A stretch of 64,000 bases of DNA from Squalus acanthias. Taxonomy: Eukaryota. This document shows positions 2,927-60,209 of the stretch, in pieces. The stretch is from positions 107,260,001 to 107,324,000 of the forward strand of contig CM059434.1 of the NCBI GenBank assembly GCA_030390025.1, given 5' to 3'. Every line of letters starts with the position of its first letter. The first letter of the stretch is position 1. The translations under genes and the position numbers were made by a program. The notes beneath the pieces are model-generated. The model saw nothing but the letters and a program-made list of their open reading frames with translations, searched no databases and was not told the origin of the DNA.

Positions 2927-3688
2927 GGGCCAGAAATTCGGCTATCCGGCTTCCTGTGGGTGCAAGCATCGCGCGCGTACTTGCCTACCGCGCCTGCTGT
3001 TGTGCTTTGGGCCCATGAGGACTTCGGCTCCTGGGCCTCCTCCAGCTGCCGGTGTGCAGTGCTTGCGTATCCCAGGGGCGCAGTTAGTTCGAAGCGTCCC
3101 CTGGGATCACGTGGGCCATGGAGAGCCAATCCTAGCAGTGCATTTTCATTCATAGATTTGACAGGAAGACCTGTCAAATCTATGAATAGAGATCGGCCCC
3201 AAAACCACACTTAAACTTCAAATACATTTTTTAAAAAACATCACATTTTTAAAATAACTATAAGTTACATAAATTAACTACTTCAAACAAAAATTTAAAT
3301 TTTTACAAAATTAATTAAACTTTTTAACAGTGCTAAAAATAAACTTACCTTTAAAGTATCTAAAAAAAGATAAACCTGTTGAAAAAATGTTTAAATTGTA
3401 ATTAATTAACCACTTACCTTGTTAAAAACAGGCCTTGCGCCTCCTTTTTAAAAGTGCAGCTTCTCCATACTTACCCTCCCGGAGAAACCTGAAAAAAAAA
3501 ACCGAAGTTCGCTGCGTGCGCGCTGCCTCTCCCGCGCATGCGTTCGACTTCTGAACCCCTTCCTTCAGGGGAACGGAAGTTCCGGTTTCCCGCGCATGCG
3601 CAGTGCATGCAGGAAACCGGCACTTCAGGTGGCCTTACGGGTGAGTACACAGCGCGTACTCACCCGACAAGAGCCGAATTTCTGGCCC
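2927..3688. mobile_element. Non-autonomous TIR DNA transposon (PIF/Harbinger-like MITE), 762 bp
   Basis: Perfect 17-bp TIR GGGCCAGAAATTCGGCT / AGCCGAATTTCTGGCCC, AAT on both flanks, GC-rich arms and an AT-rich centre. Confidence 0.85.
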
Positions 3689-3962
3689 AATATGACAGTA
3701 ATAAAGCTCCTCCTGATATCAGCATAACAGTGCGGCACCAGAAAGGTTTTAATAAAAGTCAGTCTACAATTCCCAGCACCTACCACACTCTACTGGGTTA
3801 ACCTGGTGAAAAAGCACTGCCCGGCTCCACCTCACTCAGTACAAAAGTTGCCCAATAGTTTGATACAAAGATAAGTTTAAGATGGAAAGAAAATATAATG
3901 GGGGAACAAAACGTACATTTTTGAAAGATATTGATCATTATTTTGTTTATTTTACTTCTCAG

Positions 3963-8295: not shown

Positions 8296-9125
8296 AGAAA
8301 AGATGAAAGAATAGGATACAAAATAGGAAAGAAATTTTGAGAAAGGCGATTCCATAAAAAAGGCAGGAGGAAAACACACCCCGAATTAGAAAATAAACTG
8401 TGCATGTAATTTTTTTACTTTTAAAAGCTGTCTCATTCTGTGCTGTGTTCCCATATTTTCGGATTCTCCGAATAATGGAATCTTTCACAAAAGGTAACAT
8501 TGATTCAAATTGTTCGTGCTGCCAAAGTGATCTATACTTAACATGGTTGCACCCATTTTATGGGCCTAAAACAAGCGCAGCAATAACCACTTTAGGAGTG
8601 TGGAGGCCTGCGCCCAATGTGCACGAGTGTTCAGGCCACTGCTCAATTGGTTGGGGACTCTTTTTTAGCTGGACTGGTGGCCACCTAAAATGAGCGCAGG
8701 CCTTATTTCAATATTGAAATGAGGCTCCTGTGCTCTTTCCAGACCCGGACTCCTAAATTGATTTGCCCTAGTTGGAGCTTGCTATATGCCAGCCCCCCTT
8801 TGCCCACCCACCCCCCCAACCCCTTCACCCCCTCACCCCACCACCCTCCCTCCCCCCACGCCACGGACTTACATCTGGGCCTCGGTGAAGGATAAAATTG
8901 GTAAGGCCCCAACAGGTGATGGAGGAAGGGAAGGACAAGTCCCCTCTATGCCACCGTGCCCCAGATTCATCACCAAGGGATTAATCTTGGGGAGCCCTAC
9001 CTCAAGATCATTGAACGAATTTTAGCTGTGTGCTGAAGAGAATTCTGTCTCTAAATTCTGAGTTTTATTGACTGCCTGACGAGACAGTCCTCTTTGTGGC
9101 TTTTGCAGCCAACAATAATTTCACC

Positions 9126-9366
9126 GAATACAAAAGCAAAATACTGCGGATGCTGGAAATCTGTAATAAAAACGGAAAATGCTGGAAATACTCAGCAGGT
9201 CAGGCAGCATCTGTGGAGAGAGAGAAACAGAGTTAACGTTTCAGGTCAATGACCTTTTCCAATTCTGACGAAAGGTCATCGGCCTGAAACATTAACTCTG
9301 TTTCTCGCACCACGGATGCTGCCTGACCTGCTGAGTATCTCGAGCATTTTCTGTTTTTATTCTATT
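9126..9366. mobile_element. Palindromic Penelope-like (inverted pseudo-LTR) unit with degenerate hammerhead core
   Basis: ~90-bp inverted arms; CTGACGA-AAGGTCATCGGCCT-GAAAC from 9265; flanking direct repeat AATAATTTCACC at 9114-9125 and 9367-9378. Confidence 0.75.
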
Positions 9367-12300
9367 AATAATTTCACCTGGTTGTCTGGCTTTGTTTTGC
9401 TCACCTCAGCTAGCCGATAAATCTTACATAGTTGCAATTTATAATACTTGTGTGGCCTCTAAAGTGTGGAATTGTTTTTCATCAGTCCACACTTTAGTCA
9501 TCACGGGCCGATCAGTATTGCAGTATTGCATTGGTAACTGTTACCAAAGCAACAGAACCCCTCTCAATCTCAACAAAAATTAAACTGTCAAGGCCACTTC
9601 TACTGCCACATTTATCCCAAACAGTGCCAATTGTAATACAACTCTCTCCTCCAAACCTCCCCTCTCAAGGCTGTTGTAGATTTCTCATACATTTTAATAC
9701 GGCATACAAACTAAAATGTACCAAGCTAAACCCGAGATCGGCTGACGATAACCTTTAATTTTTTGACAAAATGCTTCCGATTTCAGGCTGTGCCTCTTCT
9801 AATCACGTCTGTGGTTTTTTTTGTATCTTCTCACATCCCCGTTTTCACCCTTCTATATCAAGAGCACAAATGAGGTGTTACAGAAGAACTGTCTCAGATG
9901 ACCTTGTAATAAAAACTTTCCACAATCAAAGTTCCTTCAAACAACCACTGCAAAATACATTCCATTGGAACATTATAAATGGAATACACTGTGAGGATCC
10001 ATGATTTATGGTGATTCTATTGATGAGTAAACTGAGCACAGATTACCTTGGCAGTTGCACAAATATATACCGTAGGCCCCCATAACCTTTTCTCTATTTG
10101 TAATCTTTTGACAAGATTCATAATAATTAGTTTGGTTTGTTGTAAATACATTTTTGTATATAAATGCTCGTCATTGTTTTGCAATAAGCCCATTGCTCTT
10201 CCCACTTGTGTAGTCATTAAACAATTTGCACTATGTCAGTGGAGACTAATTAATTATTACATTGTAATTAGATGTTCGTCAAATGTTTAGTAATTAGGAA
10301 ATTGCCAAGTGTTTATTCATGTTCTCTTAAAGTAAAAGAGATTTTTATTTAGCTTTTATTTTTACTATTTAAGTTGAATCTGATTTGTAATGAGTTAATG
10401 AGCAGTTCAATTCGGGTTCAATGAGTACTGCGTTTAGATATATTTAACATTCAATTTGAGCTGTTTCTGTCAGTATAAACAAGACCTGTGGCATCTTGCC
10501 AGGACAGCACATCCTTTGAATATATTTATACTAAATTTTAAAAGTTTGTACAAGCAGCAAATCTCAATCGACTGCACCATGGCAGGATTTAAGACGCAGC
10601 CTCATTGTTGATGACCACAGTTAACAAACACCCCTATTTAAAATTATATTCAACCATTTCAGATAATACAGCCTTCAGACAATCCCAGAAATGCATTTAT
10701 ATGCTATATTCAAATAACTTACATGGCAGTTTTTCAATTTTTAAAGATGTTTGGAAATGTGAAAATGTGCTAATTAGCATTGGCAGTAGATGTTCAGTCA
10801 ACATAAAGACCCAGCAATGCAGATTGAAATACCAGTGACCCCACAGGAACGACAGTGCATCAAGCTGTTCTTAGACCTGCAGATAATAAGTATCAATGTC
10901 TGAGCATGGCAAAATGCTTAATGTACAGACTCATTTGATTAATATGAACAGACTGTTGTTCAAAAAGCCAACAATATCTTCTAAAGAAATGATTTGTTAC
11001 AATTAAGTGCATTTTATAGATGTCTGATTCATAAAATCTACCAAGTTTCATTTTTCCAACAATGCGAAGCTACATTTTCCAGGCAAATTTCAAACCCTAT
11101 TATTAGCTGATCGTTTCTACACTGCCTTCAAGGTGTAGATTCAAGTATATTTTAGGTCTCTAAAGAGTTTATTTACACATTGGTAAATGAATTCTTGGCT
11201 TCGACACCCCACCTCATCAAATTGCATGAAGTGGCGAGAGTACTAACACAGCTCACCCAGGCTCAGGTTCCATTATTTCCAGCATTAAACCAATTACATT
11301 TGATACTGAGGATCAGGCCAAAGGGGGGCAGGCGAGAACATTATATGACTGGAGTAGTGTCACAGCAGAATTTATTTTTTCCTCTCCCCCAACATATTAC
11401 TTTGCCATGCCAACCTTGACAGACAGAATTAGTTTTCCTGATTTTTGTATTTTTAAAAAGTCGTAAGTATTTTATATATATATATTGTGTGTGTATGTGT
11501 ATTTGTGTGTTTATATATGCATTTTACACACAGCTGATTGTTATAAAAGGGCAAATAAAATAGATGGCATTTAATATAGAGCATAACTTTGTTTTAAAAA
11601 GCCAATGCTCAATGTTCGACTAATTGACAACGAGAACAAATTAAAATGTTAATGTGGCGATGCAGATCCTTTTTAGTCATCACATCACTCTGTAGTCAGT
11701 TCCTTGTTTCATCATTTTAGATGTTTCAGTATAAAGATTGATATTGCCATAAAAATAGCACTAACTGCATATCAAATACATAGTACAAATACAGAGCAAA
11801 ACCAATATTTACTAGCCTTTCCCCCATCCAATCCCATTCAGCACCAGTTAGAGTTACTAACTCAGTCAAATAGCATGGTTGCGCAAAAGCTTGTGCTTTG
11901 ACGCTCATATTTGAACTAAAGCTTGGGATGTGATTGCACAAAAAAAAGGTTAGTGCCTGGGTATCTTGCTGAAAGTGTCTGATAAAACAAAAGGTGCACC
12001 TGAACTTGTGATGAGCTGGGGATGAGGATCTGCTTTTCTTTAAAGTTACCTTTTGTAGCCATTGCTTTGCAAAGTTATTGCTACTCATGTTTGAAGAGAA
12101 TATTTGAAGGGAAACTCAAGAAAATGAAGGGGTATGAACTCCTCCTCCTTGCACAGTGCCGAGGAAGTGAAAACATGGTTACTAACAACACTGGGGAAGG
12201 CCTATGGTGCAGATATGGCCTGAAAATAGGTGTATGCTGGCTTGTCAACAATTCAGTTTTAAATCTCTGAATTGTGTTTTTTTACTGTATCTTTTACTCT

Positions 12301-13510: not shown

Positions 13511-14817
13511 GACCAGTGGCAGATGAAATTTAACGCAGAAAAGTGCGAAGTGGTACATTTTGGTAGGAAGAACAAGGAGAGGCAATATAAACTAAAGGGT
13601 AAAATTCTAAATTGAACAGGCAGGAACAGAGAGACCTGGGGGTATGTGTGCACAAATCGTTGAAGGTGGCAGGTTGAGAAAGTGGTTAAAAAAGCACACG
13701 GGATCCTGGGCTTCATAAATAGAGGCATAGGGCTGGATTTTGTCTTGGGGTCGGGTTGGGGTCGTGTCATCCGCATTTCGTGTTATCCACCCGCCTGAAA
13801 TTGGATGTGGGAGATTGATGCAATTTTCACTTCATTGGGCAATTGAGTTCCAGCATGTGGGAACCCATGAACCAATGAGTGGTTCCAGTCTGAAAGTCGC
13901 CTCTGATGATGTCATCATTGTAGGTCAGAGACTGCCTGCCTGGTCTCAGAGACTGCCTGGCTTTTGGTGTGAGAGGACCTGGATGCAAAATGAGCAGCAG
14001 CTCTAAGGAGAGAGAGAGAGAGAGAGAGAGAGTTAATGGCCTCTCGCGCCTCTTGGAGGCGGGACGGAGTCGGGAACCCCGCGACCCATTTTGTCAAAAT
14101 TGCGTGGAGGCGTGTTGGAGTCGGGATGGGGTCGGGACCCCCGAATCTGCTACTTTAACCCCCCACACGCCTCCAAACCCTGACTCCACGGGTCATTCAA
14201 AATCCAGCCCATAGAGTACAAAAGCAAGGAAGTTATGATGAACCTTTATAAAACACTGGTTCGGCCTCAACTGGAGTATTGTGTCCAATTCTGGGCACCG
14301 CACTTTAGGAAGGGTGTGAAGGCCTTAGAGAGGGTGCAGAAAAGATTTACAAGAATCCATCGAGGGATGAGGAACTTCAGTTACGTGGATAGACTAGAGA
14401 AGCTGAGGTTGTTCTCCTTCGAGCAGAGAAGGTTGAGAGGAGATTTGATAGAGGTGTTCAAAATCATGAGGGATCTAGACACAGTAGATAGAGAGAAACT
14501 GTTCCCATTGGCGGAAGAGTCGAGAACCAGAGGACATAGATTTAAGGTGATTGGCAGAAGAACCAAAGGCGACATGAGGAAAAACCTTTTTACACAGCGA
14601 GTGGTTAGGATCTGGAATGCACTGCCTGAAAGGGTGGTGGAGGCAGACTCAATCACGGCTTTCAAAAGGGAATTGGATAAGTACCTGAAGGAAAAGAATT
14701 TGCGGGGCTATGAGGAAAGGGTGGGGGAGTGGGACTAGCTGAAGTGCTCTTGCAGAGAGATGGCACGGACTCGATGGGCCAAATGGCGGCCTCCTGTGCT
14801 GTAACCATTCTATGATC
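13511..14817 (+). mobile_element. CR1 LINE 3' fragment (RT C-terminus + 3' UTR), interrupted by a MITE
   Basis: WQMKFNAEKCEVVHFG at ~13517; ORF 14235-14738 contains YKTLVRPQLEYCVQFW...RTRGH; TTCTATG tail. Confidence 0.92.
13730..14210. mobile_element. PIF/Harbinger-like MITE, 481 bp, inserted in CR1
   Basis: TIR GGGCTGGATTTTG / CAAAATCCAGCCC with an ATA TSD. Removing it restores CR1 AGAGGCATAGAGTACAAA (RGIEYK). Confidence 0.9.
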
Positions 14818-15211
14818 CAATTTTGGGTCAGATATTTTTCAGGCGGTCTTGGGGCGTAGCACGTTGGTCCCTGAAATTGGGCCTCATTACGCCCGTTTTT
14901 TGCCCACAAAATGCGTGCAACGAGGACCAATTTCTACCTCTGTGATTTTACAAGAAATAACAGATTTATTTTAAAATGCACTATGAGCTCTGGGGAACTT
15001 ACACCTTCAAGAGTGTTGGATTCTGATGAATTTGTCAGTAACTTTCACACATGTTATTGATAACAAGACCATTGCCGTATATATTGATTCATTTCATACC
15101 TGAAATACACGATTTGATATCCATTCCATCAATGTAGCATTTTAGCCATAATACATTTCATACTGATCATTGTCATGTTAACCTAAAAACCTTGCTTTCT
15201 TATTACCTCAG

Positions 15212-15268
15212 TCAATTGGTGTAGAGATCCCAAAGATTAATTTAAGAAAGAGGCACCCTAACACGCAG
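15212..15268 (+). CDS. CACNA2D1: Cassette exon 18a (alpha2delta-1 splice region A)
   Basis: cag|TCA...CAG|gtaatg, 57 nt, encoding SIGVEIPKINLRKRHPNTQ versus mammalian PIGVGIPTINLRKRRPNIQ. Confidence 0.9.
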
Positions 15269-19460: not shown

Positions 19461-21565
19461 TAAGACTGAGGTTTTGTTCTGTAAGATTGTTGATTAATTT
19501 TTTGTGCCCGTCAAGGGATGTCAATAATAAAACCAGCGAATGCTGGAAAGGCACAACAGATCAGGCAGGATCTGAGAAACGGGTTAATGTTTAAAGTGTA
19601 ACCCTTCATCAGAATGCCTGTCATAAACTGTGGTAACCATGGTACCTTAATCCACAATGTTTGAAAATGCAGTCTGAGAGAAAACTTTTGAAAGGGGGTT
19701 CTCTTGAATATATTAGTTTCAAAGATTAGCAGAGAATCCATCAAATCGTCACCAGACATGACATGCTATACAGTTCACTACAATAAGACGTAAAATAACC
19801 AAGGGGTTAGTGTAGATCTAACATACTGAGGTGGCTCTGGTTGCTGTGGGGAAAAATAATTCAGCCTAGTATGTTTCATATCCTGGCAACAAGGATTTCT
19901 GTTACCATGGTTGCAGCTCTGGATCCATAAAATTCAAAGACGTGTGTTTTTTTTAATTATCTGGCGATAGAATCCATTTTATGCATAGGGACCGTAAGTC
20001 TATGGGTGTGCGACTGTTATAATCCAGAACGCTGAGAGGGGGAGGGGTGGGGGGGCTCTTGTCCCAGAAAATAGAGGGGAAATTGTCTTGAATCACTCTA
20101 TGACACTCTCACACCAGAGACCAGTAATAAAATAGTGGTGGAAATAGAGTAGAAGCATTGTTAGAAGCTTAGGAGCTGGTTGTAGGCCTCTCTTATCAAT
20201 AGGCCTGTGGCACACAGCATGCGGGCCAGCAAAAAAGGGGGAACGTGTCCAACAGAATGAGGTATTTTTTCTTTTTGAAATACATAGGAAAAAAAACCTG
20301 AAATCCAAGACGGTAGGTTTATCAGGTTCCAACCAATGGAATTTCATCTGCATGTTTAACAGTGATGTGAGCAGGCAGCCACAGTTGCACTGCCCACTCT
20401 CATTGCTGTTGGATGGGAGAAGGCAAGAGTTCTACACGTTTGTACTCAAACACGTGCTTGGAGTACTGATCACTGGCCTCAAACTGCTGCTGAGATTTCC
20501 CATCATAGAATAGAGCTGACAGGACAGGACAGTCAGCTCTATTCCATCCTGTGGCACACTGAGCCTGCTGAATGATCTAAACTTAAAACATGGCTGTATG
20601 CTGTCGATGTGCAATACCAATGATGTGCAGTCTTGCAATCAGCCCCGAACTGCTTATTTCTGCAAAATTGGCACCATTATGTTGTGCATTTGGTGTCAGT
20701 GTGGTGCAAAAGATGGTGATGCACTGATTCCAAATGAGACCTAAGAATGTCATTCTGAACACAATGCAATCAGGTTTCTTTCTTGGATTAACCCTACCTG
20801 TATCTGGACCCAATCCAAATTAAAGGTGCAACAAGGCATGACCACTTATCATCTCTTACATAACATAATATTCACATTGCTGCTTAACATCTTTTACTAA
20901 AATAATTTGACCAGATTTGTATTATCCTGCACACAAATGCTTTCATTTTATAAATGACTAGCCCAGTGGGTTTTTCTTTTTAAAAGTCATCGTAAAGTGG
21001 CCAGTTTCTTCCTCTGTAATTCGCCATTTTTATTTTGTTGTTGTGTAAGCTGTTTTGTATAATTGCTTCTGACTCTTATTTTTCTTTCCATGGCCACATG
21101 TATCGGAATGCGACGTGACCTGCTTACCTCATCCCATCAATGTCTTGATGCATGCTGCATGCTTGGTAATGTCATGGGGTCTTCTGTGCATGTAAACTAC
21201 TGTCATTTAATTCGGTGCGATGTGTTGTTTAATGAGGGGTGATCCCTGTGTCTGTATTGTACAATATAACAAAACCCATTATCTACTCCTGTTGTGTCAA
21301 GAGAAAGTATTCTGTTGACATGCAGCCGGCGCCTGCGGTCTGTCTGCAGGAACAGGATGTTGCTGCATTAAGCAGCTGCAGTAAGGCGCTCCTTGGTCCA
21401 TAGATAAAAGCTGCACTGGTCACCAATCCACTTTTATGAGTGAATATCAGTTTTGCAGATGCTATATGAAGCCAATATATGATAGGCATGTTGTAATAGA
21501 AATTACTGATATTTGGTAAGTGTTAAAACAGTTCAGTTAGACGAAAAGAGACTGATTTGATACAA

Positions 21566-21746
21566 AAAGAAAATACTGCAGATGCAGCATCTGTGAAGAG
21601 AGAAACAGAGTTAACGTTTCAGGTCGATGACCTTTCGTCAGAACAGTTCTGACAAAAGGTCATCGACCTGAAACGTTAACTCTGTTTCTCTCTTCACAGA
21701 TGCTGCCTGACCTGCTGAGTTTCTCCAGCATTTTCTGTTTTTATTT
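21566..21746. mobile_element. Palindromic Penelope-like unit with two opposed hammerhead cores
   Basis: Near-perfect hairpin centred at ~21645; direct repeat CTGATTTGATACAA at 21552-21565 and 21747-21760. Confidence 0.78.
21609..21644 (-). ncRNA. Minimal type I hammerhead ribozyme motif (PLE type)
   Basis: Minus strand reads GTT-CTGACGA-A-AGGTC-ATC-GACCT-GAAA-CGTT-AAC: intact core, 5-bp stem II, palindromic ACGT stem III and a GTT/AAC stem I. Confidence 0.65.
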
Positions 21747-23207
21747 CTGATTTGATACAATCTTGTGTTTCTTTCCTGACCTTGGATCAATGATGGGGCT
21801 GAAATCTACTTTTTTTTTTTAACATCCCGATTAAATGTGCGCTGAGAAACTGGATCAGTTTGATTCCTGTGTCCACTGGTGAGTGGATCATCATTGGATC
21901 CCAATGCTTGGCAACTTTCTAAAATCCCTCACCTGATTTCAATATTGACACGTTGAAAAAAAAATCCCATTTCTAACCGCTTCAAAATAAGCGCTTTGAC
22001 CCCAATCAGAATAGCTGCAGTAGTAAGCCCGTCAGACTACATAAAAGGGAGCTCACATTTTCATGACCAATTTGAATGATAGTTGCGTTTGCAAAAAAAA
22101 ATCTGCCTGCTACTCAGAACACAGCTTGCAGTCAAATTGTAAGATTCCAATTGTAATTCATTCTCTCATTCTCCAACCAAAACCCTAGTGCTCAGGAAAG
22201 AGGATTTGAATCCTCAGTTCATTGGTAATTGAGAGTGGCATTCATTCGCCATTGCCTGTGCCATGTGATGCTACAGCTCCATGTAGTTCCTGTGTAAAAC
22301 AATTCTTCATGTAAAATCCACATCAAATTGTTAAATAGTGCATAGCATCAGCAGAATGTACAATCGGTATTAGGAGGAGATGCCACTTGTCTCAAACATT
22401 CCCTATGATCCCAGTAGGGTAATTAAAATGGATTATCTGACCTTACTATTCCTTGTAGTTAGTAGAGATTAATTTTGTGGAGCTTTGCTCTTAATGGGCC
22501 GTAAATTAAATAAAACATACCAACAAAATGTGTTGATGTATCTCTTGCAAGTTGAAAAAATTGATGCAGAGAAAAGCTGAACCTTGCTGAGGAGCGTGAT
22601 CACGTAAAGTATTGACTATTGCCAACAGGGCTGAATGACAGACTGTAACATTTACATTGGGCTCATTGAACCAGACAGAGTTGCTCTATTCTGTTCCCGC
22701 GAGTGCGCAGTCCTTATTGTACTGGATAATATAACTAAATTCATCCAGTTTCACCTTTGGAGATGCAGGAGAAAGCCATTGCTGCTATAATTCAATAGCT
22801 CTACGTGTTAAATAAAGGTTAAACCACAGAACAGTTAATTGCGATGGTGTAATGCTGACGGGTGTTAATACGGGCCAAATGTCAACAAGCATCCGTACAA
22901 TAAGAAGGTTAAAACAATTGCCGTAGAAGAAATATTATACAGCAAATGCATTCAGTTCAATAATCTCCCACCAACACTTCTGAAATGTAACATATTATGC
23001 CTGAATATTACATAGGATGAGATGTTGGAGAAATAGTTTCCTGAACAACCTTTTTGTTTTATCTACGGCTAACCTTTTGTTTAACCATCCTTACTGAGAA
23101 GGGCACAAAAAATAAATCTAGGCTGTACTGGTTCGGGCTCAAATGTTGAACTTTATGTCACATAGTATTTTCCATTTATTGTTTGATGATTATTCCTTTT
23201 GGTTTAG

Positions 23208-23279
23208 AATCCTAAATCTCAGGAGCCCGTCACTTTGGATTTTCTAGATGCTGAACTGGAGAATGAAATTAAAGTGGAG
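23208..23279 (+). CDS. CACNA2D1: alpha2delta exon 19 equivalent (begins with region B, NPKSQ)
   Basis: tag|AAT...GAG|gtaaga, 72 nt, encoding NPKSQEPVTLDFLDAELENEIKVE; an internal CAG at 23220-23222 could act as an alternative acceptor. Confidence 0.95.
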
Positions 23280-24079
23280 GTAAGATGATCTTAGTTGGCC
23301 AGCGGCTACCGACAGTGGCATGTCAAAGCCTTTTAACTCCATAATGTCTGGATTCACTTTAAAAATAATAATAATGTGAACTGGTTCATATGTAAATTGC
23401 CTGTATTTTTTTCCGTGGCTTTTTGTGTAGTGCAGGTCATGTGCTTACTTGAAGAAACTTTGCCTTCTCCTAATTGAACTTGACAGCCTGTCTGTGTAAT
23501 CATGAACAGACTCTGGCTGGCAAACTTTCAGTGCCAATTGGCCTGACCACGGGAGATTATTTCAGTTTAGCGGTTAGGTAGCTTGTATGTGCTGCGATGT
23601 GTGCCTCATTTTTAAATAAAAAACTTTTTTTTATTTTAGTGAAATTGTATCTTTTTTGGCAACCATTCAGGTCTTCGAACTGCTGAACAGTGTTGTCATT
23701 CCTGGAAAATCTAAGCACTGATTGCTGGTTAATGGGATGCCACTGGAATATAATGACTGGATTGTCTGTCTATTCTTAAAAGTGCATGTATCCAGGTCTA
23801 ACACTATGCCAAAAACTCAAAACCAAATTGATGCGCTTTCTACAAATAATCTAACTGCTGTGCTCTACACTATGAAGGAACAAGTTTGGTTGCAACTCTG
23901 TAAAATACAGAAGAAAGGGAGTTTCAACACACTATTTCACCTATGACCTATGGCATTGCCCACGGTCAGTTGATAAATATAAAGATGGCAGCCAATTTGG
24001 AAGAGAGACTTCAGAAACTCTCCAGAGAGCCATCCAGGGCTCAAGCCTACAACAAGATTGTGACATTTGACCTAGAGTT

Positions 24080-43340: not shown

Positions 43341-44549
43341 ATGTGCAGTGAGCAGTGCAGCAGCTCCAATCTACTGATTGTGTATCACTCGCCACACTCT
43401 GAGACTGGGCGCTGCAGTGTAACTGGCTTTAAGCAAGTGTAAAGGAAACAAATAGTTCTACCATTGGAGTTTGGAGCCACTTTAATCTTCATAAATGAAA
43501 ATAAAATTCTGGAAAGAAAGCAAAACAGAATTAAAATATATTTACTGATGATTGGATTTCAAGGCTGTTTCCTTTCAGTCAAAAAACAAAATGTCCCTTT
43601 TTACAATTAATTCATAACAAATGGTATCTAGTCTGACATTAGCAGAATAAGAGCTAGAATACGCAAGCAAACAACAATATGTTCAAGACATTTAATAGAT
43701 TCTGTACAATTGTTTTAATTCTTCTGAGCCCAACAAAGCTATTTTAAACATCAAAGAAATTACAGTTCGCCTGTAAGATAAATACCATGGTTTATGGGAA
43801 GTACATAATCATGCATTGAAAAGATCACTGTTCCGACAGTAATATTTAAAATATATGAATTTTACAACTAAATATCATTATTCCAAGCATAATGCAAAGC
43901 AATTGGCATGCCATATCTAACTTTAAATATTATGTGCCCCAATAACACTATAATTAAGGGTGCAGTCACACTACAACGGTGGTGTTGGTGTGAATTGGTT
44001 TTGCTTTGCTCTGAGACAGCAGTTAAAGTGTAAATGTAGCCAGAATCCAGAGTCAGGCTTGACCTGACATCAGAGTGAGGAGAGTGAGACTGCCTGAATG
44101 GGATAGTCTCACTCCATTTTGTTTCAGAGTCATGTGGATTTTAGCACCCGATTTACACTGCACAGTGTAGATTTTAACTATTGGACGGTGGCCAGTGGAG
44201 AAGCCGGTCACCCACCCGTTGTGGCCATGAAGAGGCCAGAGCCATTTTGATGCCCACCCGAAACGTGTGACCCGAAGCAGCTCGCCGGATTTGGGCTGAT
44301 GCAATATGGGGCAGTCTCCGGGCAGTAGGATAAGTCCTGGAGGGGAGGAGTCATGATTGCGGGAGGGGTACGTGCCTGGGGTGACAACAGCCCAGATTAT
44401 TTTTCTGGGGCTCAGATGAGCACTAATAATTTAAAACTTAGCTTTCAAGAGCCTACGTTACAACAGTGACTACACTTCAAAAGTACTTCATTGGCTGTAA
44501 AGCTCTTTGGAATGTCCTGAGGTCGCCAAAGGTGCTATATAAATACGTT

Positions 44550-44796
44550 CTTTCTATCTAGCTATCTATCTCTATCTCTATCTATCTCTCTATCTCTATC
44601 CCTATCTCTATCTAGCTATCTATCTATCTCTATCTATATTTATCTATCTGTCTCTATCCCTATCTCTATCTAGCTATCTATCTATATCTATCTATCTCTA
44701 TCTATATCTATCTATCTATCTCTATCTTTATCTATCTATCTCTATCGCTATCTCTATCTAGCTATCTATCTAATTATCTATCTAGCTATCTATCTA
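44550..44796 (+). repeat. (TCTA)n/(TCTCTA)n microsatellite grown from a SINE tail
   Basis: Imperfect TCTA array immediately after a DeuSINE tail (44455-44550), inside a degraded MITE-like region (~44160-45060). Confidence 0.9.
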
Positions 44797-46636
44797 GTCG
44801 GAGAGTGCATGGCACATGCTTTGACCAGTTCTGTCCTAAAATGCCAATTGACGTCCTATGGACGTCAAAGGAACCCTATTTGCATAATGCCTGGAACCTA
44901 CTGCCTGGAACAAGCTTCCACTTTTGACGCCCAGCAGGAGGCCCCTGTAAAATAGGAGGCCAGAGTGTCAGTGTTAATGGGGCAGTAAATCTACCGACCC
45001 CATTATAAGGCCCCCACATGCTTAGCTTTGGTGCAAGGCTGAACCACACCCCACCGACAAAGTGCGAATGAACCGCTAATCCTTAGTGTGCACATCAGTA
45101 AATTTAAATGTATCCTGTCCTGTGTAACCATATAAGCAGCAGCCCTTTGTCGAATGTTATTTTGGTTACAGTATTTAGAGGAGCCAGGAGCAAACTATTA
45201 AGCTTCCTGTCGCTGAAAGAAGGGAACATTTTCAGCGGTGTTGTTCCAGGATAAATGTATGCAACAGATTCCCTACATCGAGTTAATAGTTATGATGAGG
45301 TTGTTTACTGTTTCTGCTGGAAATGAAATACTCTTCTAACATTTTATCAAAAAGAAATTATCATTTTGGGGAGCTTGAAAGGACCGCTGGGAAATACGGA
45401 CTCCTGGAAACCTGCCTGAGAGCTGACAATTTGTGTGCGCGTGTCGGGTGGGGACATTGGGCAGGAGAAGGGGGGATATCTAGGGAGCTCTGTATGTTTA
45501 GTTCCACCATTTGGACATTAGGGTAATTTCAACAACCACTCGGCAAAACAAATCGAAACTAGGGGCTCCTTTCAGAAAAGGAGACTGCTGGTTAACTGTT
45601 GTAGATTCCACCATTTAAGTTGCTGCAATTTAACCTTGAAGTAGAAATGATAAGTCATTATGGTTTTCATTTTGCCAGATTTATCTTTCTGCTTTTCCTT
45701 CATGAAATTCTGCTTCCATAGTAAGATTGATACATGGCAGCATCCATAGAGTTTCCATCTTTAGCTTGTTGCATTGTAAAGTTGTAGATTGCTGGTTGTG
45801 TCTCGGAGAGTATGGAAAGAAGTCAAAATAGCAAATCAGTCTTTCGGGTGAATGAGGTAATAGAAACAAGAGAAGCCCAATGTAAAAAATGTGGGCTGGT
45901 TGCCCTAAGGAGCCATGATGCAATTTCAGGAACTGTGTGAAATCTGAGCCCGGTCAGAAACTGCCTGCAGTGGTCTGGTTGTGTTTAGGTTTCTCGCTTC
46001 CCAAATAACATTGGGGAAACACTGTGGTCCCTCCGTGCGCACAAATGCCTCATTTGTGTTTACAAGAGACCTGCATTTTCTCAGGAGTTTCATTCGAAGC
46101 AGATGAAAGGAGAATTTCTTCCGCTACACGAACATAAATAGCTGCTGATTCATCTCCGTTGTCAGAAAATTAATCAAAGCAATCTCCACATGGCATTTAC
46201 TTATTTAATTATAGTTCTATACCGTGTTTTGCACTATGCAGCTCACTTCACATTTCAGCCCTCATGACGCATGACGTTTCCATTCCTACATTTCACTGAG
46301 ACTAGACTGAGTTCAGATTCAATTGCCTTGGAAGATATTATTAAACATTTATTATTGGACTTAATTTGCTCGTGAATTATTGTGACCGTCATAATAAGCA
46401 TTAATTATCTATCCATAAATTAAAATTCTTCCTGTAACGCTTTTTCTGTCATGATTTTCTGTCACACGATTTCCACTATAATGTTGCTGTCACACTTTTC
46501 TGTAATGCTGAAGTATTTCTATTGATTTTACTTACCTCTGGTTCAGTCCTCCATGTTTGGTCTTCAAGGGAGGTAGTGCTGCTCCTTAACTTTGAGACCC
46601 CTAGGTGGCAGTGTAGAGACCAACTTCAGGCATTTA

Positions 46637-50494: not shown

Positions 50495-51620
50495 CAATAA
50501 AAACGGAAGGTCAGGCAGCATCTATGGAGAGAGAAACAGAGTTCACGTTTCAGGTCTTTCATCATTTTTAAAAATTCGTTTATGAGATGTGGGCGTCGCT
50601 GGCAAGGCCAGCATTTATTGCCCATCCCTTGAGTAGGTGGTGGTGAGCCGCCTTCTTGAACCGCTGCAGTCCGTGTGGTGAAGGTACTCCCACAGTGCTG
50701 TTAGGTAGGGAGTTCCAGGATTTTGACCCAGCGACGATGAAGGATCGGTGATATACTTCTAAGTCAGGATGATGTGTGACTTGGAAAGGAACTTGGAGGT
50801 GCTGGTGTTCCCATGCGCCTGCTGCCCTTGTCTTACTAGGTGGAAGAGGTCGCGGGTTTGGGAGGTGCTGCCGAAAAAGCATTAGCGAGATGCTGCAGTG
50901 CATCTTGTAGATGGTACACACTGCAGCCACGGTACGCCGGTGGTGGAGGGAGTGAATGTTTAAGGTGGTGGATGGGGTGCCAATCAAGCGGGTTGCTTTG
51001 TCCTGGATGGTGTCGAGCTTCTTGAGTGTTGTTGGAGCTGCACTCATCCAGGCAAGTGGAGAGTAAGTGCAGAACTGCAAGATGTTAGAGATGGTCTGGA
51101 CCCATCTTTTGTTTCTTTACTTGTCCCATTACCAACCCCTTTTGCCTTGCACCATCATCATCTTTGTAATTTAATCATTCCTGCCCTCCACCCTATCACA
51201 GACCTTCTCCTTTGTAGAAAGAAAGAAAGACTTGCATTTCTATAGCGCCTTTCACAACCACCGGATGTCTCAAAGCGCTTTACAGCCAATGAAGTACTGT
51301 TGAAGTGGAGTCACTGTTGTAATGTAGGAAATGCGGAATGCAATTTGTGCACAGCAAGCTCCCACAAACAGCAATGTGATAACGACCAGATAATCTGTTT
51401 TTGTTATGTTGGTTGAGGGATAAATATTGGCCAGGACACCGGGGATAACTCCCCTGCTCTTCTTCGAAAATAGTGCCATGGGATCTTTTACGTCCACCTG
51501 AGAGAGCAGACGGGGCCTCTCCTTTCCTGTACTTTCCTGCCCCCTCCCCCCGACTCTGTATTTGCTTAAATGCTATTCATCTCTAACACCTTCCAGTTCT
51601 GATGAAGGGGCATCGAGTTA
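50495..51620. mobile_element. Penelope-like remnant carrying a nested LINE (50567-51065, -) and DeuSINE (51215-51520, -)
   Basis: The left arm matches the 9.1 kb and 21.6 kb palindromes; the right end has CAGTTCTGATGAAGGGGCATCGA, a truncated hammerhead core. Confidence 0.65.
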
Positions 51621-55959: not shown

Positions 55960-56718
55960 GGGCCGGATTTTCCGATCAGAGGCTTCCTGCATGCGGATGC
56001 CTCCGATCGAGAAAAATCTACGCACTTACCTGCTGGCTCCGGAGGTCCCGACACTTCCATTCCTGGGCCTCTCCGGGTCCGCGCGCGCAGAGGCCCAGGT
56101 ATCCCGGGGTGCATGCGGTTCGCAAGCGTCCCTGGGATCACGTGGGCCATGGGGAACCAATCAAAGAAGGGAATCCCCCTTCACACTTTTGACAGGTCTC
56201 TCCGCACAGATCTGTCAAAAGTATGAATGGGGATCACATTTAAAAACACAGTAAAACATTAAATACATTTTTTTTTAAAATCATGTATTTAAAATTAGTT
56301 CAAATTACATTAAATTAAATATTTTAAACATAAATTTAATTTAAAAAAAAATAATTAAAGTTTTTTACGGATCTAAAAATAAACTTACCTTTTTAAATTA
56401 TAAATGAGTGGGAAAAAAATGTATTTTTTCATTTTTTAAAAACTCTGATGCAGGTAAAAGCAGGCCTTACACATGCTTTTACCAGGCGTAAGATTTTTAA
56501 AGGTTTTCAGCGGGCGGAGGTTGTGCAGAAAGCGGAACTCTCTGCCCGAGGAGGCCCATCTCCCGGGCAGGCATCCGATCTGTCAAGAGAATTCTTGACA
56601 GATCGGAAGTGCCAGGTTTTAGTGCATGCGCTTCGCATGCCTGAAACCGGCACTTGCGAGGCCCCTACGGGTGGATACACACCTCCTACGCACCCGTGGG
56701 GGTCGGAATATCCAGCCC
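55960..56718. mobile_element. PIF/Harbinger-like MITE, 759 bp, inserted in a LINE RT fragment (55850-56790)
   Basis: TIR GGGCCGGATTTTCCGA / TCGGAATATCCAGCCC. The AAT TSD is confirmed by the empty site CCTCAGATAATGAAGCAG at 42481-42498. Related to 2927-3688. Confidence 0.9.
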
Positions 56719-57057
56719 AATGAAGCAGTCCATGCCCGCATGCAACAAGACCTAGATGACGTTCAGGCTTGGGCTGATAAGTGGCAGTCTTATCAACAGC
56801 CAGTGTCATCAATCATAAGACTTTCTTTTAACCAAGGCCCAAGGTTACTTGACACAGAAATAAGTTCTCCTTTGTTTAGTCAACACCACCTGCTTCTATA
56901 TACAGTGAGCTGTCTTTCTGACTGAATGTAGAAATCATGTTGGAAATTAACTCTTGTTGGGCTCACGACAGTTTTCCTACATAATACTGTCATTATAAAA
57001 ATGCAAGTTGTCTGACTCGCTGAGAGCAATGCTACAGGAAACCTGCTGGTATGGGTA

Positions 57058-57503
57058 ATCATAGAATCATATAAACTTACAGCACAGAAGGAGGCCATTT
57101 GGTCCGTCGTGCCTGTGCTGGCTCTTTGAAAGAGCAGCTGTGCTTAGTCCCACATCCCTGCTTTTTGTCCATATCCCTGTAAGTTCCTCATCCTCAAGTA
57201 TCTGTCCAACTCCCTTTTAAAATTATTCATGGAATCAGCTTCCACCACCTTTTCAGGTCGAGCGCTCCAGGTCCCGACAACTCTCCGAGTGAAAAAAAAT
57301 TCTCCTCATCTCCCGTCTAGATCGTTTGGCAATGATTTTAAATCTATGACCTCTGGTTATTGACTCACTCACCAGAGCGAATATTTTTTCCCTCTCTACT
57401 CTATCAAAACCTCTCATCATCTTGAAAACCTCTATTCGGTCACCTCTAACCTTCTCTGTTCCAAGGAGAACAGTCCAAACTTTTCCAACCTCTCCTCATA
57501 ACT
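57058..57503 (-). mobile_element. CR1 LINE 3' end
   Basis: ATCATAGAATCAT tail with antisense TRGHRFKII and CR1 C-terminal motifs. Confidence 0.85.
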
Positions 57504-58537: not shown

Positions 58538-60209
58538 AAGGGTGTTCCAGTATCCATTGTTAGTGACTCCTTGGAATTAATAGTCATATTTCAGCCCATC
58601 ACACAAAATCATTCTTAATTCTGTTTATCAATGTTGAGAGTGTCGGAAAGTGTAAAATCAAAGGAATACATTGAAGAGTGAAAGCTGATCTTTCGTCAGA
58701 ACTTCACCTCTGAACCCTGACTTAGAGGGAAGTGATCATTAAGGAGGCAATGGTCAAGAGAGCTTGAGAAAAAAGGAGTTCTTGGCTGCAGTATTTTATC
58801 CTGTAACTTGGTGGAGCAAAACAGAAATGTTTGTTCTCGTTTCTTATTCGGATTCAAAAAGGTAATTAACTTCTGCGGACATTGCAAAGGATTTTTATGA
58901 TATTGTGCTGTGCTAGAAATGCCTAATCCTAATAAAACTGGAAACACACAGGTCAACCAACATCTGTGGCGAGCACGGACAATTGGCATGATGGGTGTGT
59001 ACCACCTTCTGTTTTGAAGAAGGTACCCAACCAAACCATGGACCGTCTGTCCTCTCCACAGAAGCTGGTTGACTGCTATGTCTTTCTAGCATTTTCTGCT
59101 TTTGTTTACGCTCTCAGGTATATATGGTATTTTGCTTTTTACTAATCTGAACTCTGGTACTTTCTCAGGTGCTTTATTTTGTAAATAAATGCTTTTAGTT
59201 AATTTTGCCTGTAAATATTCTGAAATGCTGAATTAATTGAAAATGTCGTGCAATTATAATTAGCGCTCACTCCAGATACCTTTTGTTCTCAAAAAGTTTG
59301 CTTACATAGACAAGTCTTTATTCCCTATGATCAAAAATAGTAATCTGGAATATCGTGTTCTGAGCAAACAATGAACACTTTTATTTTTACTCGATAGCAC
59401 ACAAGAATTCCATTATATTTCATGATACTTCTGAAGACAGATAATCTGAGCCTCATTAGATACTTTTTGGAACAATGGGTTTATTTACAATAGCAAGCCA
59501 TAACTGCAAGATATTGAAAGCTGTCCAAAAACAGAAGTCTAGAATCAGTTCACAAAAGGTTAAAGAGACGAACCAACCAAATGCAATCCTTCGTAAACTT
59601 CCTTGCAGACCTTAATACTTGTCAGGAAAAGATAGCAGATTTGTTTCTTAGCAAACAAATTGAATACAGTCTTTGCGGGAATTATATAGGTGTATGCCAG
59701 AAAATCCACTTTTTGAATCCATGCATCATAGCCTGACAGATCTAAACTGCTGATGCAGGAAATGTTACCAGAGTTTTATACTCGTAAGTCTTTGAAAAAC
59801 AGGCCCTGTTCGGAAGATCACTTATGAAACAGAGGTAGTCTTCTTGAACAATGTCAACAATCTTTCCAACCAATTAATCACAAAATGTTCGCCATGCCAG
59901 TCTGTGGTTTATGATGTACACTGTCTGCATTTGGGCCATTCCGCCTATCCCATTGGCATCTTGTTTAAAGCACAATTAATTCAATTGACCATCTTTGGAT
60001 CAGGACTTAATTGGATTATAATGATTTTGTGTTAGTGCTTGGAGTGCTCTAGCCAACATGCTTGATTGCTGATGAATGCGTAATCTCCATCTTGAGTGTA
60101 GCATTGTAGAAACCTATTTTAAACTGAGAAACACAGTAAAGGAAAATTAGTAAACCCTTGACAAAATATTATTTTTCTTTTGCATACAAGTCCATGTGAA
60201 GTCAAGTGG

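What the first reader, a model, noticed from the sequence alone, without database searches (positions are those of the whole stretch)
21552..21760. Short palindromic element with back-to-back minimal hammerhead ribozymes and a 14-bp TSD
Seen: a ~180-bp hairpin. Its minus strand reads GTT-CUGACGA-A-AGGUC(AUC)GACCU-GAAA-CGUU-AAC, a complete hammerhead core with a loopless, self-complementary ACGU stem III. The plus-strand mirror copy (21645-21681) has CUGACAA, a G8-to-A change. The unit is flanked by the direct repeat CTGATTTGATACAA. Known: Penelope-like elements (PLEs) carry minimal type I hammerheads with palindromic stem III that are thought to cleave as dimers. Inference: this is a non-coding, ribozyme-bearing retro-unit (retrozyme-like) mobilised by PLE machinery, even though it looks like a MITE.
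Basis: partly seen in the sequence, partly recalled or inferred. Interest (0 to 1): 0.75.

Follow-up and report, generated by a model that had tools for sequence, protein, structure and literature searches.

The report
Truncated Penelope insertion with mirrored hammerheads
This is a 181-base insertion in an intron of a cartilaginous-fish calcium-channel gene, missing at the same spot in a related species, and is likely the clipped, mirror-duplicated end of a Penelope-type jumping gene whose ribozyme motif is predicted to be inactive here, a layout already described for this class.

Summary
There are two back-to-back minimal hammerhead (HHR) motifs, one with G8A, in 61-bp mirror arms. The 14-bp repeat is a true target-site duplication (TSD): a related organism has the clean empty site with one copy.

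It is not a fixed unit. Three other head-to-head copies in the window invert at other points, one carrying about 200 nt more upstream sequence. In 3 of 3 copies with both outer ends, the ~39-nt 'tail' lies on one arm only. That is the published layout of Penelope-like element (PLE) insertions: truncated end, inverted copy, tail, TSD.

'Retrozyme-like' is not supported. There are no head-to-tail units, the motifs lie on opposite strands, and the hairpin is predicted to bury the ribozyme (stem II pairing ~1e-17). The element sits in a CACNA2D1 intron, with the intact core antisense.

No PLE reading frame could be linked (no genome held), so class membership rests on structure. Likely mechanism: reverse transcription primed from both nicks of a staggered cut, with the two cDNAs joined head-to-head. 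This scan noted the same family before in two other shark genomes. Mostly ordinary.

The parts
21552..21565 (+). left copy of the 14-bp target-site duplication
   Evidence: single copy at the empty site in organism B (X6 record 18)
21566..21644 (-). left arm: pLTR-like end in sense on the minus strand, running to the end of the tail, with a 52-nt internal deletion near 21585 that removes the interior of a predicted 7-bp stem
   Evidence: alignment to copy 2 left arm; fold of copy 2 arm
21610..21644 (-). minimal type I hammerhead motif with intact core (C3 21641, G8 21636, H17 21613; predicted cut between 21613 and 21612); antisense to the host pre-mRNA
21645..21681 (+). mirror hammerhead motif with G8A at 21654 (a CpG-type transition); on the host pre-mRNA strand
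21645..21746 (+). right arm: pLTR-like end without tail, stopping at the inner T-rich end site
   Evidence: many family contigs leave the reference at 21744-21747 (table 7)
21747..21760 (+). right copy of the 14-bp target-site duplication
9114..9378 (.). second head-to-head copy, same subfamily: 12-bp direct repeats (9114-9125, 9367-9378), tail on left arm only, asymmetric junction (right arm holds upstream bases that the left arm lacks)
50498..51616 (.). older head-to-head copy split by two later repeat insertions; left arm reaches about 20 nt upstream of the core, right arm carries about 200 nt of upstream parent sequence
   Evidence: 21 of 24 identity between the two upstream pieces; joining of the pieces read by eye
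58929..59141 (.). diverged head-to-head relative, tail on right arm only; 6-bp direct repeat at the boundaries (weak)
19524..19616 (-). single diverged arm, truncated about 4 nt upstream of the core, without tail
15200..15268 (+). CACNA2D1 exon match upstream of the intron that holds the element
   Evidence: tblastn with P0145 and P0156
23208..23285 (+). CACNA2D1 exon match downstream of that intron

Best explanation
This is a 181-bp insertion with a 14-bp target-site duplication, likely a severely 5'-truncated copy of the hammerhead-bearing end (pLTR) of a Penelope-like retrotransposon joined head-to-head to a second truncated copy, with ribozyme motifs predicted to be inactive passengers at this locus. 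Steps: (1, shown) the insert is absent at the orthologous site of a related organism, which has one copy of the 14-mer. (2, shown) Both arms are pieces of a longer, very abundant repeat and end at two preferred sites about 39 nt apart. (3, inferred) A PLE RT/GIY-YIG protein nicked both strands 14 nt apart in AT-rich DNA. (4, inferred, about even odds) Each 3'-OH primed reverse transcription on uncleaved PLE RNA, one at the inner start site and one at the tail end; both cDNAs stopped after about 100-135 nt and were joined at their truncated ends, which gives the palindrome, the one-sided tail and the TSD in one event. (5, inferred) The 52-nt deletion and G8A arose by skipping across a stem and by CpG decay. 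(6, predicted) Any read-through RNA forms a 61-bp hairpin instead of a hammerhead.
For: Empty site: X6 record 18 has pieces 21449-21551 (record 2408-2513) and 21747-22200 (record 1947-2407) directly adjacent; X5, another sample of the window's organism, carries the left junction (table 8). Summed contig depth is 3-9 million on the element against 6-16 on the flanks in X5 and X6 (not a copy count). 132, 244, 9 and 19 contigs run on upstream of 21644 into a shared sequence that matches window 51565-51594 at about 23 of 30 letters by eye; 301 (X6) and 19 (X9) run on behind 21753 into the tail (table 7). Four head-to-head copies have four different junctions; the tail is on one arm in 3 of 3 copies that keep both outer ends. 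The motif fits the published min-HHR consensus, with the same C-G-U-U stem III as pufferfish PLEs. The layout is published for PLEs. A lizard PLE protein nicks and extends both strands, starts at two sites that bound the tail, and does not need HHR cleavage. Both TSD ends match the template at the two end sites (6 of 6, 6 of 7); 49 of 62988 window 14-mers do so (post hoc). Stem II pairing probability is 5e-18 to 1e-16 in whole-element RNA.
Against: No RT or GIY-YIG frame was linked to the family. The motif scan of the window gave none convincing; 0 of 17 window ORFs had a relevant Pfam hit; none of 43 scanned protein hits to the arm's open frame carried a PLE domain. First stem II pair is A-U, not G-C. 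TSDs of 12-14 bp are longer than the 8-10 bp in the rotifer paper. Copy 2 shows no primer-template match, and the lizard study reports starts without homology to the cut DNA. Both arms share a minor variant (T at 21694 and its mirror 21596; C in 77-96% of depth in four runs), which self-priming explains more simply. The empty site is seen in one organism only; precise loss between the repeats would look the same.
Confidence: 0.75

Rival explanations
1. Same PLE origin, but the inverted arm is made by self-priming or fold-back on one nucleic-acid strand (proposed on an antisense template), and the endonuclease then trims one end so that the tail is left on one side only.
For: Proposed in print for head-to-head PLE junctions (PMC3846280); tail ascribed to endonuclease resolution (PMC8557442). 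The focal junction is almost perfectly symmetric (1 nt between arms) and both arms share a minor variant.
Against: In copy 2 neither arm is a subset of the other: one has the tail, the other has upstream bases, so an extra trimming step is needed. The tailless arm stops at the same inner site in several copies, which two RT start sites explain directly.
Confidence: 0.3
2. A dedicated non-autonomous, retrozyme-like unit that is transcribed, self-cleaves as a dimer and is re-inserted as a palindrome.
For: Intact core on one arm; extreme abundance of the arm sequence; non-LTR retrozymes are reported to derive from pLTRs and to occur in one chondrichthyan genome. A swapped two-molecule hammerhead can be drawn, at -8.9 kcal/mol.
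Against: No tandem array within 20500-23000; junctions differ between copies; motifs on opposite strands; hairpin predicted to dominate; the drawn dimer is 14 kcal/mol above the co-fold minimum. Only 1 motif in the window passes the strict descriptor. None of the 15 displayed joints (of 225) starts at the predicted cut, 21678.
Confidence: 0.07
3. A MITE or fold-back DNA transposon whose hammerhead look is incidental.
For: Small, non-coding, palindromic, abundant, with a TSD.
Against: The inverted repeat is central, the two ends are unlike, ends and junctions vary, TSD length differs (14 and 12), single arms and upstream-extended copies exist, and the motif is not a chance match (0 in 500 shuffles).
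Confidence: 0.03

Closest known systems
EN+ Penelope-like element insertions with inverted pLTR, tail and TSD (Arkhipova et al. 2013, PMC3846280, passages; Craig et al. 2021, PMC8557442, passages)
   Same: Head-to-head inverted 5'-truncated copy, palindrome at the junction, 30-40-bp tail at one end only, TSD, solo pLTRs.
   Different: Here nothing but the two pLTR stumps is left (181 bp); TSD 12-14 bp against 8-10 bp; parent ORF and clade not identified.
Minimal type I hammerheads of metazoan PLEs (Cervera and De la Pena 2014, PMC4209133; parts 1-2 of 4 and supplement file 2 part 2 of 3)
   Same: CUGANGA plus one extra base, 5-bp helix II, loopless palindromic C-G, helix I of 3-4 bp; pairs of motifs 100-700 bp apart on opposite strands were already noted in Schistosoma.
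   Different: A-U instead of G-C at 10.1-11.1 (also in one coelacanth row of their table); the two motifs here are only 8 nt apart (C3 to C3); no cartilaginous fish in the part of the table read.
Poseidon element of Anolis, PAc (Frangieh et al. 2024, PMC11167929; parts 1-2 of 4)
   Same: Two RT start sites bounding the tail, AT-rich targets, both strands nicked and extended, uncleaved RNA as template.
   Different: PAc starts without primer homology, while the focal copy matches the template at both ends; the parts read do not treat inverted junctions.
Non-LTR retrozymes (Cervera and De la Pena 2020, PMC7229834, passages; Li et al. 2026 preprint 10.64898/2026.07.22.740005, part 1 of 5 and passages)
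   Same: Non-coding, type I HHR, pLTR-related, dependent on an outside RT.
   Different: Retrozymes are head-to-tail tandem units with HHRs in one orientation that yield circular RNA; this is an inverted pair with a variable junction.

Membership tests
EN+ Penelope-like element | parent with RT + GIY-YIG reading frame | tested here: inconclusive
   None found in window or protein searches; no genome held; collection scans gave no true family member
EN+ Penelope-like element | minimal hammerhead in the terminal repeat | tested here: met
EN+ Penelope-like element | 5'-truncated pieces of a longer repeat | tested here: met
   loose ends upstream of 21644 in 4 of 4 runs; longer copy 50498-51616
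EN+ Penelope-like element | inverted head-to-head copy at the 5' end | tested here: met
   4 copies in the window; joints
EN+ Penelope-like element | 30-40-bp tail at one end only | tested here: met
   about 39 nt; on one arm in 3 of 3 copies with both outer ends
EN+ Penelope-like element | variable-length TSD | tested here: met
   14 bp with empty site; 12 bp at copy 2 (no empty site examined); none of 6 nt or more at 2 of 5 copies examined
PLE minimal hammerhead | CUGANGAH ... GAAA-palindrome-UH core with helix I and II | tested here: met
   minus arm met; plus arm fails at G8
PLE minimal hammerhead | G10.1-C11.1 pair | tested here: not met
   A-U in both arms; consensus and one A-U exception
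PLE minimal hammerhead | core better conserved than flanks across the family | tested here: inconclusive
   one search shows 40 of 74 difference rows and arms map to two places; C3 reads T in 36% of depth in X6 but in 0-2% in the other three runs; window copies too few and decayed
PLE minimal hammerhead | self-cleavage as a dimer | not testable with these tools
   needs an in vitro assay; only contigs, no raw RNA reads, were on offer
Non-LTR retrozyme | head-to-tail tandem units, each with an HHR in the same orientation | tested here: not met
Non-LTR retrozyme | expression as circular RNA | not testable with these tools
   no RNA holder on record
MITE (definition recalled) | terminal inverted repeats at fixed ends and a family-specific TSD length | tested here: not met
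   unlike ends, variable junctions, TSD 14 vs 12

The most novel reading that the evidence does not exclude
The hammerhead works in integration as a structural tether, not a knife: two uncleaved PLE RNAs pair through their palindromic ACGU stem III, a dimeric RT-endonuclease primes one from each nick of a 12-14-nt staggered cut, and both cDNAs stall at the hammerhead's 5' edge, where they are joined. That would explain why 3 of 4 inverted junctions in the window, and 13 of the 15 displayed family joints, fall within about a dozen bases of the core's start. It would also make these stumps a huge natural record of the unsolved second-strand step of PLE insertion. The joint table cannot show junctions further upstream, so the clustering may be an artefact of the reference.
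Probability: 0.12. Interest if true: 0.65.

Novelty: new member of a known kind. Interest (0 to 1): 0.22.

Why it matters
As a locus it matters little: one intronic stump among a very large number. As a family it is useful. How PLEs make inverted junctions and tails is still open in the papers read. Young stumps with orthologous empty sites give exact nick positions, start sites and junctions, so twin priming and self-priming can be told apart by counting. Such copies are also easy to mislabel as MITEs, microRNA hairpins or active ribozymes.

Tried and rejected
No genome held, so no genome-wide consensus. Rfam: 0 matches at gathering; the 11 weak matches are hairpin-shape or chance matches, none a hammerhead. 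Exact-pattern scans: 0 in viral contigs, 0 in prokaryote genomes, 0 then 12 in metagenomes. None of the 12 extends beyond 21-33 nt; the 2 read in full lie in bacterial-looking coding DNA. An open frame through the hammerhead and tail (34-42 aa) was searched in case it began a PLE ORF. It gave 3 and 46 hits; the 16 read are mostly stray translations of family copies or unrelated repeats, and none of 43 scanned had a PLE domain. A six-frame Pfam scan did not run, so only 17 of the 50 long ORFs were scanned. No RNA holder is on record. Run X23, a guessed RNA run, covers the element but not the flanks, which says nothing on expression of this locus. 4 of 24 listed runs were laid. X9 does not cover the insertion site's flanks. 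The multiple alignment misplaced the upstream pieces and was not used. The 18-nt piece at 58686-58703 (E 0.13) was left out of all counts. Lunse et al. on dimeric PLE hammerheads is not held and is known only through a review's passages. PMC6155905 (passages) says nothing on sharks. No paper describing this family was found in searches; most subscription papers and repeat libraries such as Repbase and Dfam are not covered, so it may well be catalogued. Supplement file 1 of PMC4209133 was not searchable, and no supplements of the preprint were seen; either may list a chondrichthyan motif.

Full report
OBSERVATION. Arms 21584-21644 and 21646-21706 are 61 nt and 98% complementary, and a 14-bp direct repeat lies at 21552-21565 and 21747-21760. 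The whole stretch folds at -122.8 kcal/mol, z -18.8. The minus strand holds a minimal type I hammerhead: C3 at 21641, one extra A, 5-bp stem II, loopless ACGU, H17 = U at 21613, 3-bp stem I. The plus-strand mirror has a 4-bp stem I but A at G8 (21654). A strict descriptor finds that one motif in the window and none in 500 shuffles. Rfam finds no hammerhead; its models probably expect a closed stem III (my inference). The '180-bp hairpin' is really a 123-nt hairpin inside a 181-bp insert with unlike ends.

THE TSD IS REAL. I laid 4 of 24 listed runs. In X6 (organism B) one contig of 2543 nt, depth 9.65, has window 21449-21551 at record 2408-2513 and window 21747-22200 at record 1947-2407. So it lacks 21552-21746 and keeps one copy of the repeat. 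All 3 differences on the left piece and 14 of 15 on the right piece are listed outside the repeat, so at least 13 of its 14 letters match. X5, another sample of the window's organism, has a contig over 21100-21611 that includes the left junction and the deletion. Gain is the simpler reading; precise loss in organism B is not excluded.

CONTEXT. Ten exon matches on the plus strand, from 1558 to 37741, belong to CACNA2D1. Seven align cleanly at 91-100% identity to a shark orthologue (P0145); three alignments run into intron and score lower. Several exons match the holocephalan protein (P0156) less well. A horn-shark protein model carries stray translations of this repeat at both ends (P0002). 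The window is therefore from a cartilaginous fish (inference). The element lies between exon matches 15200-15268 and 23208-23285, about 1.45 kb before the next exon. The pre-mRNA strand carries the G8A arm; the intact core is antisense. Other repeats in the window look like CR1-type LINE ends and a tRNA-derived SINE (labels recalled, not from a call).

THE FAMILY. Summed contig depth is 3-9 million over the element and 6-16 over the flanks in X5 and X6. The tool warns that this is no copy number; it shows only great abundance. Of 792 loose-end rows 24 are shown. In all four runs contigs run on upstream of 21644 into a shared sequence (132, 244, 9, 19 contigs), which matches window 51565-51594 at about 23 of 30 letters by eye. 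Others leave at 21744-21747 with low agreement (0.37-0.43 in the large groups), and 301 (X6) and 19 (X9) continue behind 21753 into a common extension. In the window, copy 2 (9114-9378) has the same layout with its own 12-bp repeat, a ~39-nt extension on the left arm only, and a lopsided junction: the right arm holds about 11 nt upstream of C3, while the left arm breaks inside the core. A diverged copy (58929-59141) has the extension on the right arm only. An older copy (50498-51616), split by two later insertions, inverts about 20 nt upstream of the core on one arm and carries about 200 nt of upstream sequence on the other (pieces joined by eye). A single arm lies at 19524-19616. So the unit has two preferred 3' ends and no fixed centre. 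The focal left arm lacks 52 nt, the interior of a 7-bp stem predicted in copy 2's arm.

WHAT IS KNOWN. Rotifer PLEs have a direct plus an inverted pLTR, a 31-bp tail on one of them, 8-10-bp TSDs, palindromes at the junction and mostly head-to-head arrangement, which the authors ascribe to self-priming (PMC3846280, passages). Craig et al. give the same layout as typical (PMC8557442, passages). Cervera and De la Pena define the minimal hammerhead, report weak cleavage of dimers and none of monomers, and mention motif pairs on opposite strands (PMC4209133, parts 1-2 of 4). Their table has the same C-G-U-U stem III in Tetraodon, a consensus G10.1-C11.1 that this element lacks, and one A-U coelacanth row (supplement file 2, part 2 of 3). 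The Anolis PLE protein is predicted to be a dimer, nicks and extends both strands, starts at two sites that bound the tail, and inserts equally well with a dead ribozyme (PMC11167929, parts 1-2 of 4). Non-LTR retrozymes are tandem units (PMC7229834, passages; preprint 10.64898/2026.07.22.740005, part 1 of 5 and passages).

MECHANISM. Shown: insertion site, TSD, truncation from a longer repeat, two end sites, variable junctions. Inferred: a staggered double nick 14 nt apart, priming from both nicks at the two start sites, early termination, and head-to-head joining. In favour: the tail is on one arm in 3 of 3 complete copies, and neither arm of copy 2 is a subset of the other. At the focal locus both ends of the target match the template at the two end sites (6 of 6 and 6 of 7), which 49 of 62988 window 14-mers do (a post hoc test). 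Against: copy 2 shows no such match, and both focal arms share a T (21694 and mirror 21596) where 77-96% of depth has C. That needs one source locus, copying of one arm from the other, or later conversion. I put twin priming at about even odds against self-priming with trimming. Both arms contain sequence upstream of the cut site, so their templates were uncleaved there. None of the 15 displayed joints (of 225) begins at 21678.

IS THE RIBOZYME ALIVE HERE? Probably not. In whole-element RNA of either strand the stem II pairs have probabilities of 5e-18 to 1e-16. Even for the isolated arm the double-hammerhead form (-8.9 kcal/mol) lies well above the co-fold minimum (-22.9); nearest-neighbour energies omit tertiary contacts and protein help. 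The two motifs face away from each other on opposite strands, and there is no tandem array. G8A is a CpG-type change, as is the stem III change in copy 2's right arm, so decay is enough to explain them. Both plus-strand motifs inside mapped introns are broken, but two cases cannot show selection. Family-wide conservation of the core was inconclusive: 40 of 74 difference rows are shown, and C3 reads T in 36% of depth in X6.

WHAT IS MISSING. No PLE reading frame was tied to the family (pattern scans 20, 26, 31, 37, 38, 41). It works like a PLE stump and meets five of six listed features; the defining ORF is untested in practice.

NOVELTY. Eight paper searches found no description of this family, but repeat libraries were not searchable. 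Two earlier notes of this scan reach the same reading in other shark genomes; they are unchecked AI notes, seen after I had formed my reading, and are not counted as support. Verdict: new member of a known kind, interest 0.22. The boldest open reading is that hammerhead pairing tethers two templates and sets the junction (probability 0.12). 13 of 15 displayed joints start at 21635-21644, but the reference cannot reveal junctions further upstream, and hundreds of contigs do run further.

Noticed in passing
window 1558-37741 (+): Ten exon matches to CACNA2D1 (calcium channel alpha2/delta-1), including a short exon near 15209-15268 that is more diverged from the holocephalan protein.
   Followed up: partly
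window 21680-21698 and 21728-21749 (+): Each arm holds two pyrimidine-rich tracts ending in a CAG-like triplet that resemble 3' splice acceptors; on the pre-mRNA strand they could act as cryptic acceptors. Stray translations of the family occur in gene models (P0002, P0020).
   Followed up: no
window 21646-21747 (+), 9124-9240 (-), 9253-9378 (+): An open frame runs through hammerhead and tail in three arms, as the ORF start does in some PLE pLTRs; no full-length protein beginning with it was found.
   Followed up: yes
window 50498-51616: Nested insertions give an order of events: a head-to-head copy of this family was later hit by a LINE-like piece (about 50569-51069) and a SINE-like piece (about 51217-51517); labels recalled.
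   Followed up: partly
position 21649: In organism B, 36% of depth reads T at hammerhead C3, against 0-2% in the other three runs; may be a subfamily with a U3 core variant or a mapping effect.
   Followed up: no
window 3228-3691 and 56268-56721; 14436-14591 and 57292-57447: Other dispersed repeat pairs at about 71% identity, not examined.
   Followed up: no
window 44525-44822: Low-complexity tandem array of 8-14-nt units.
   Followed up: no
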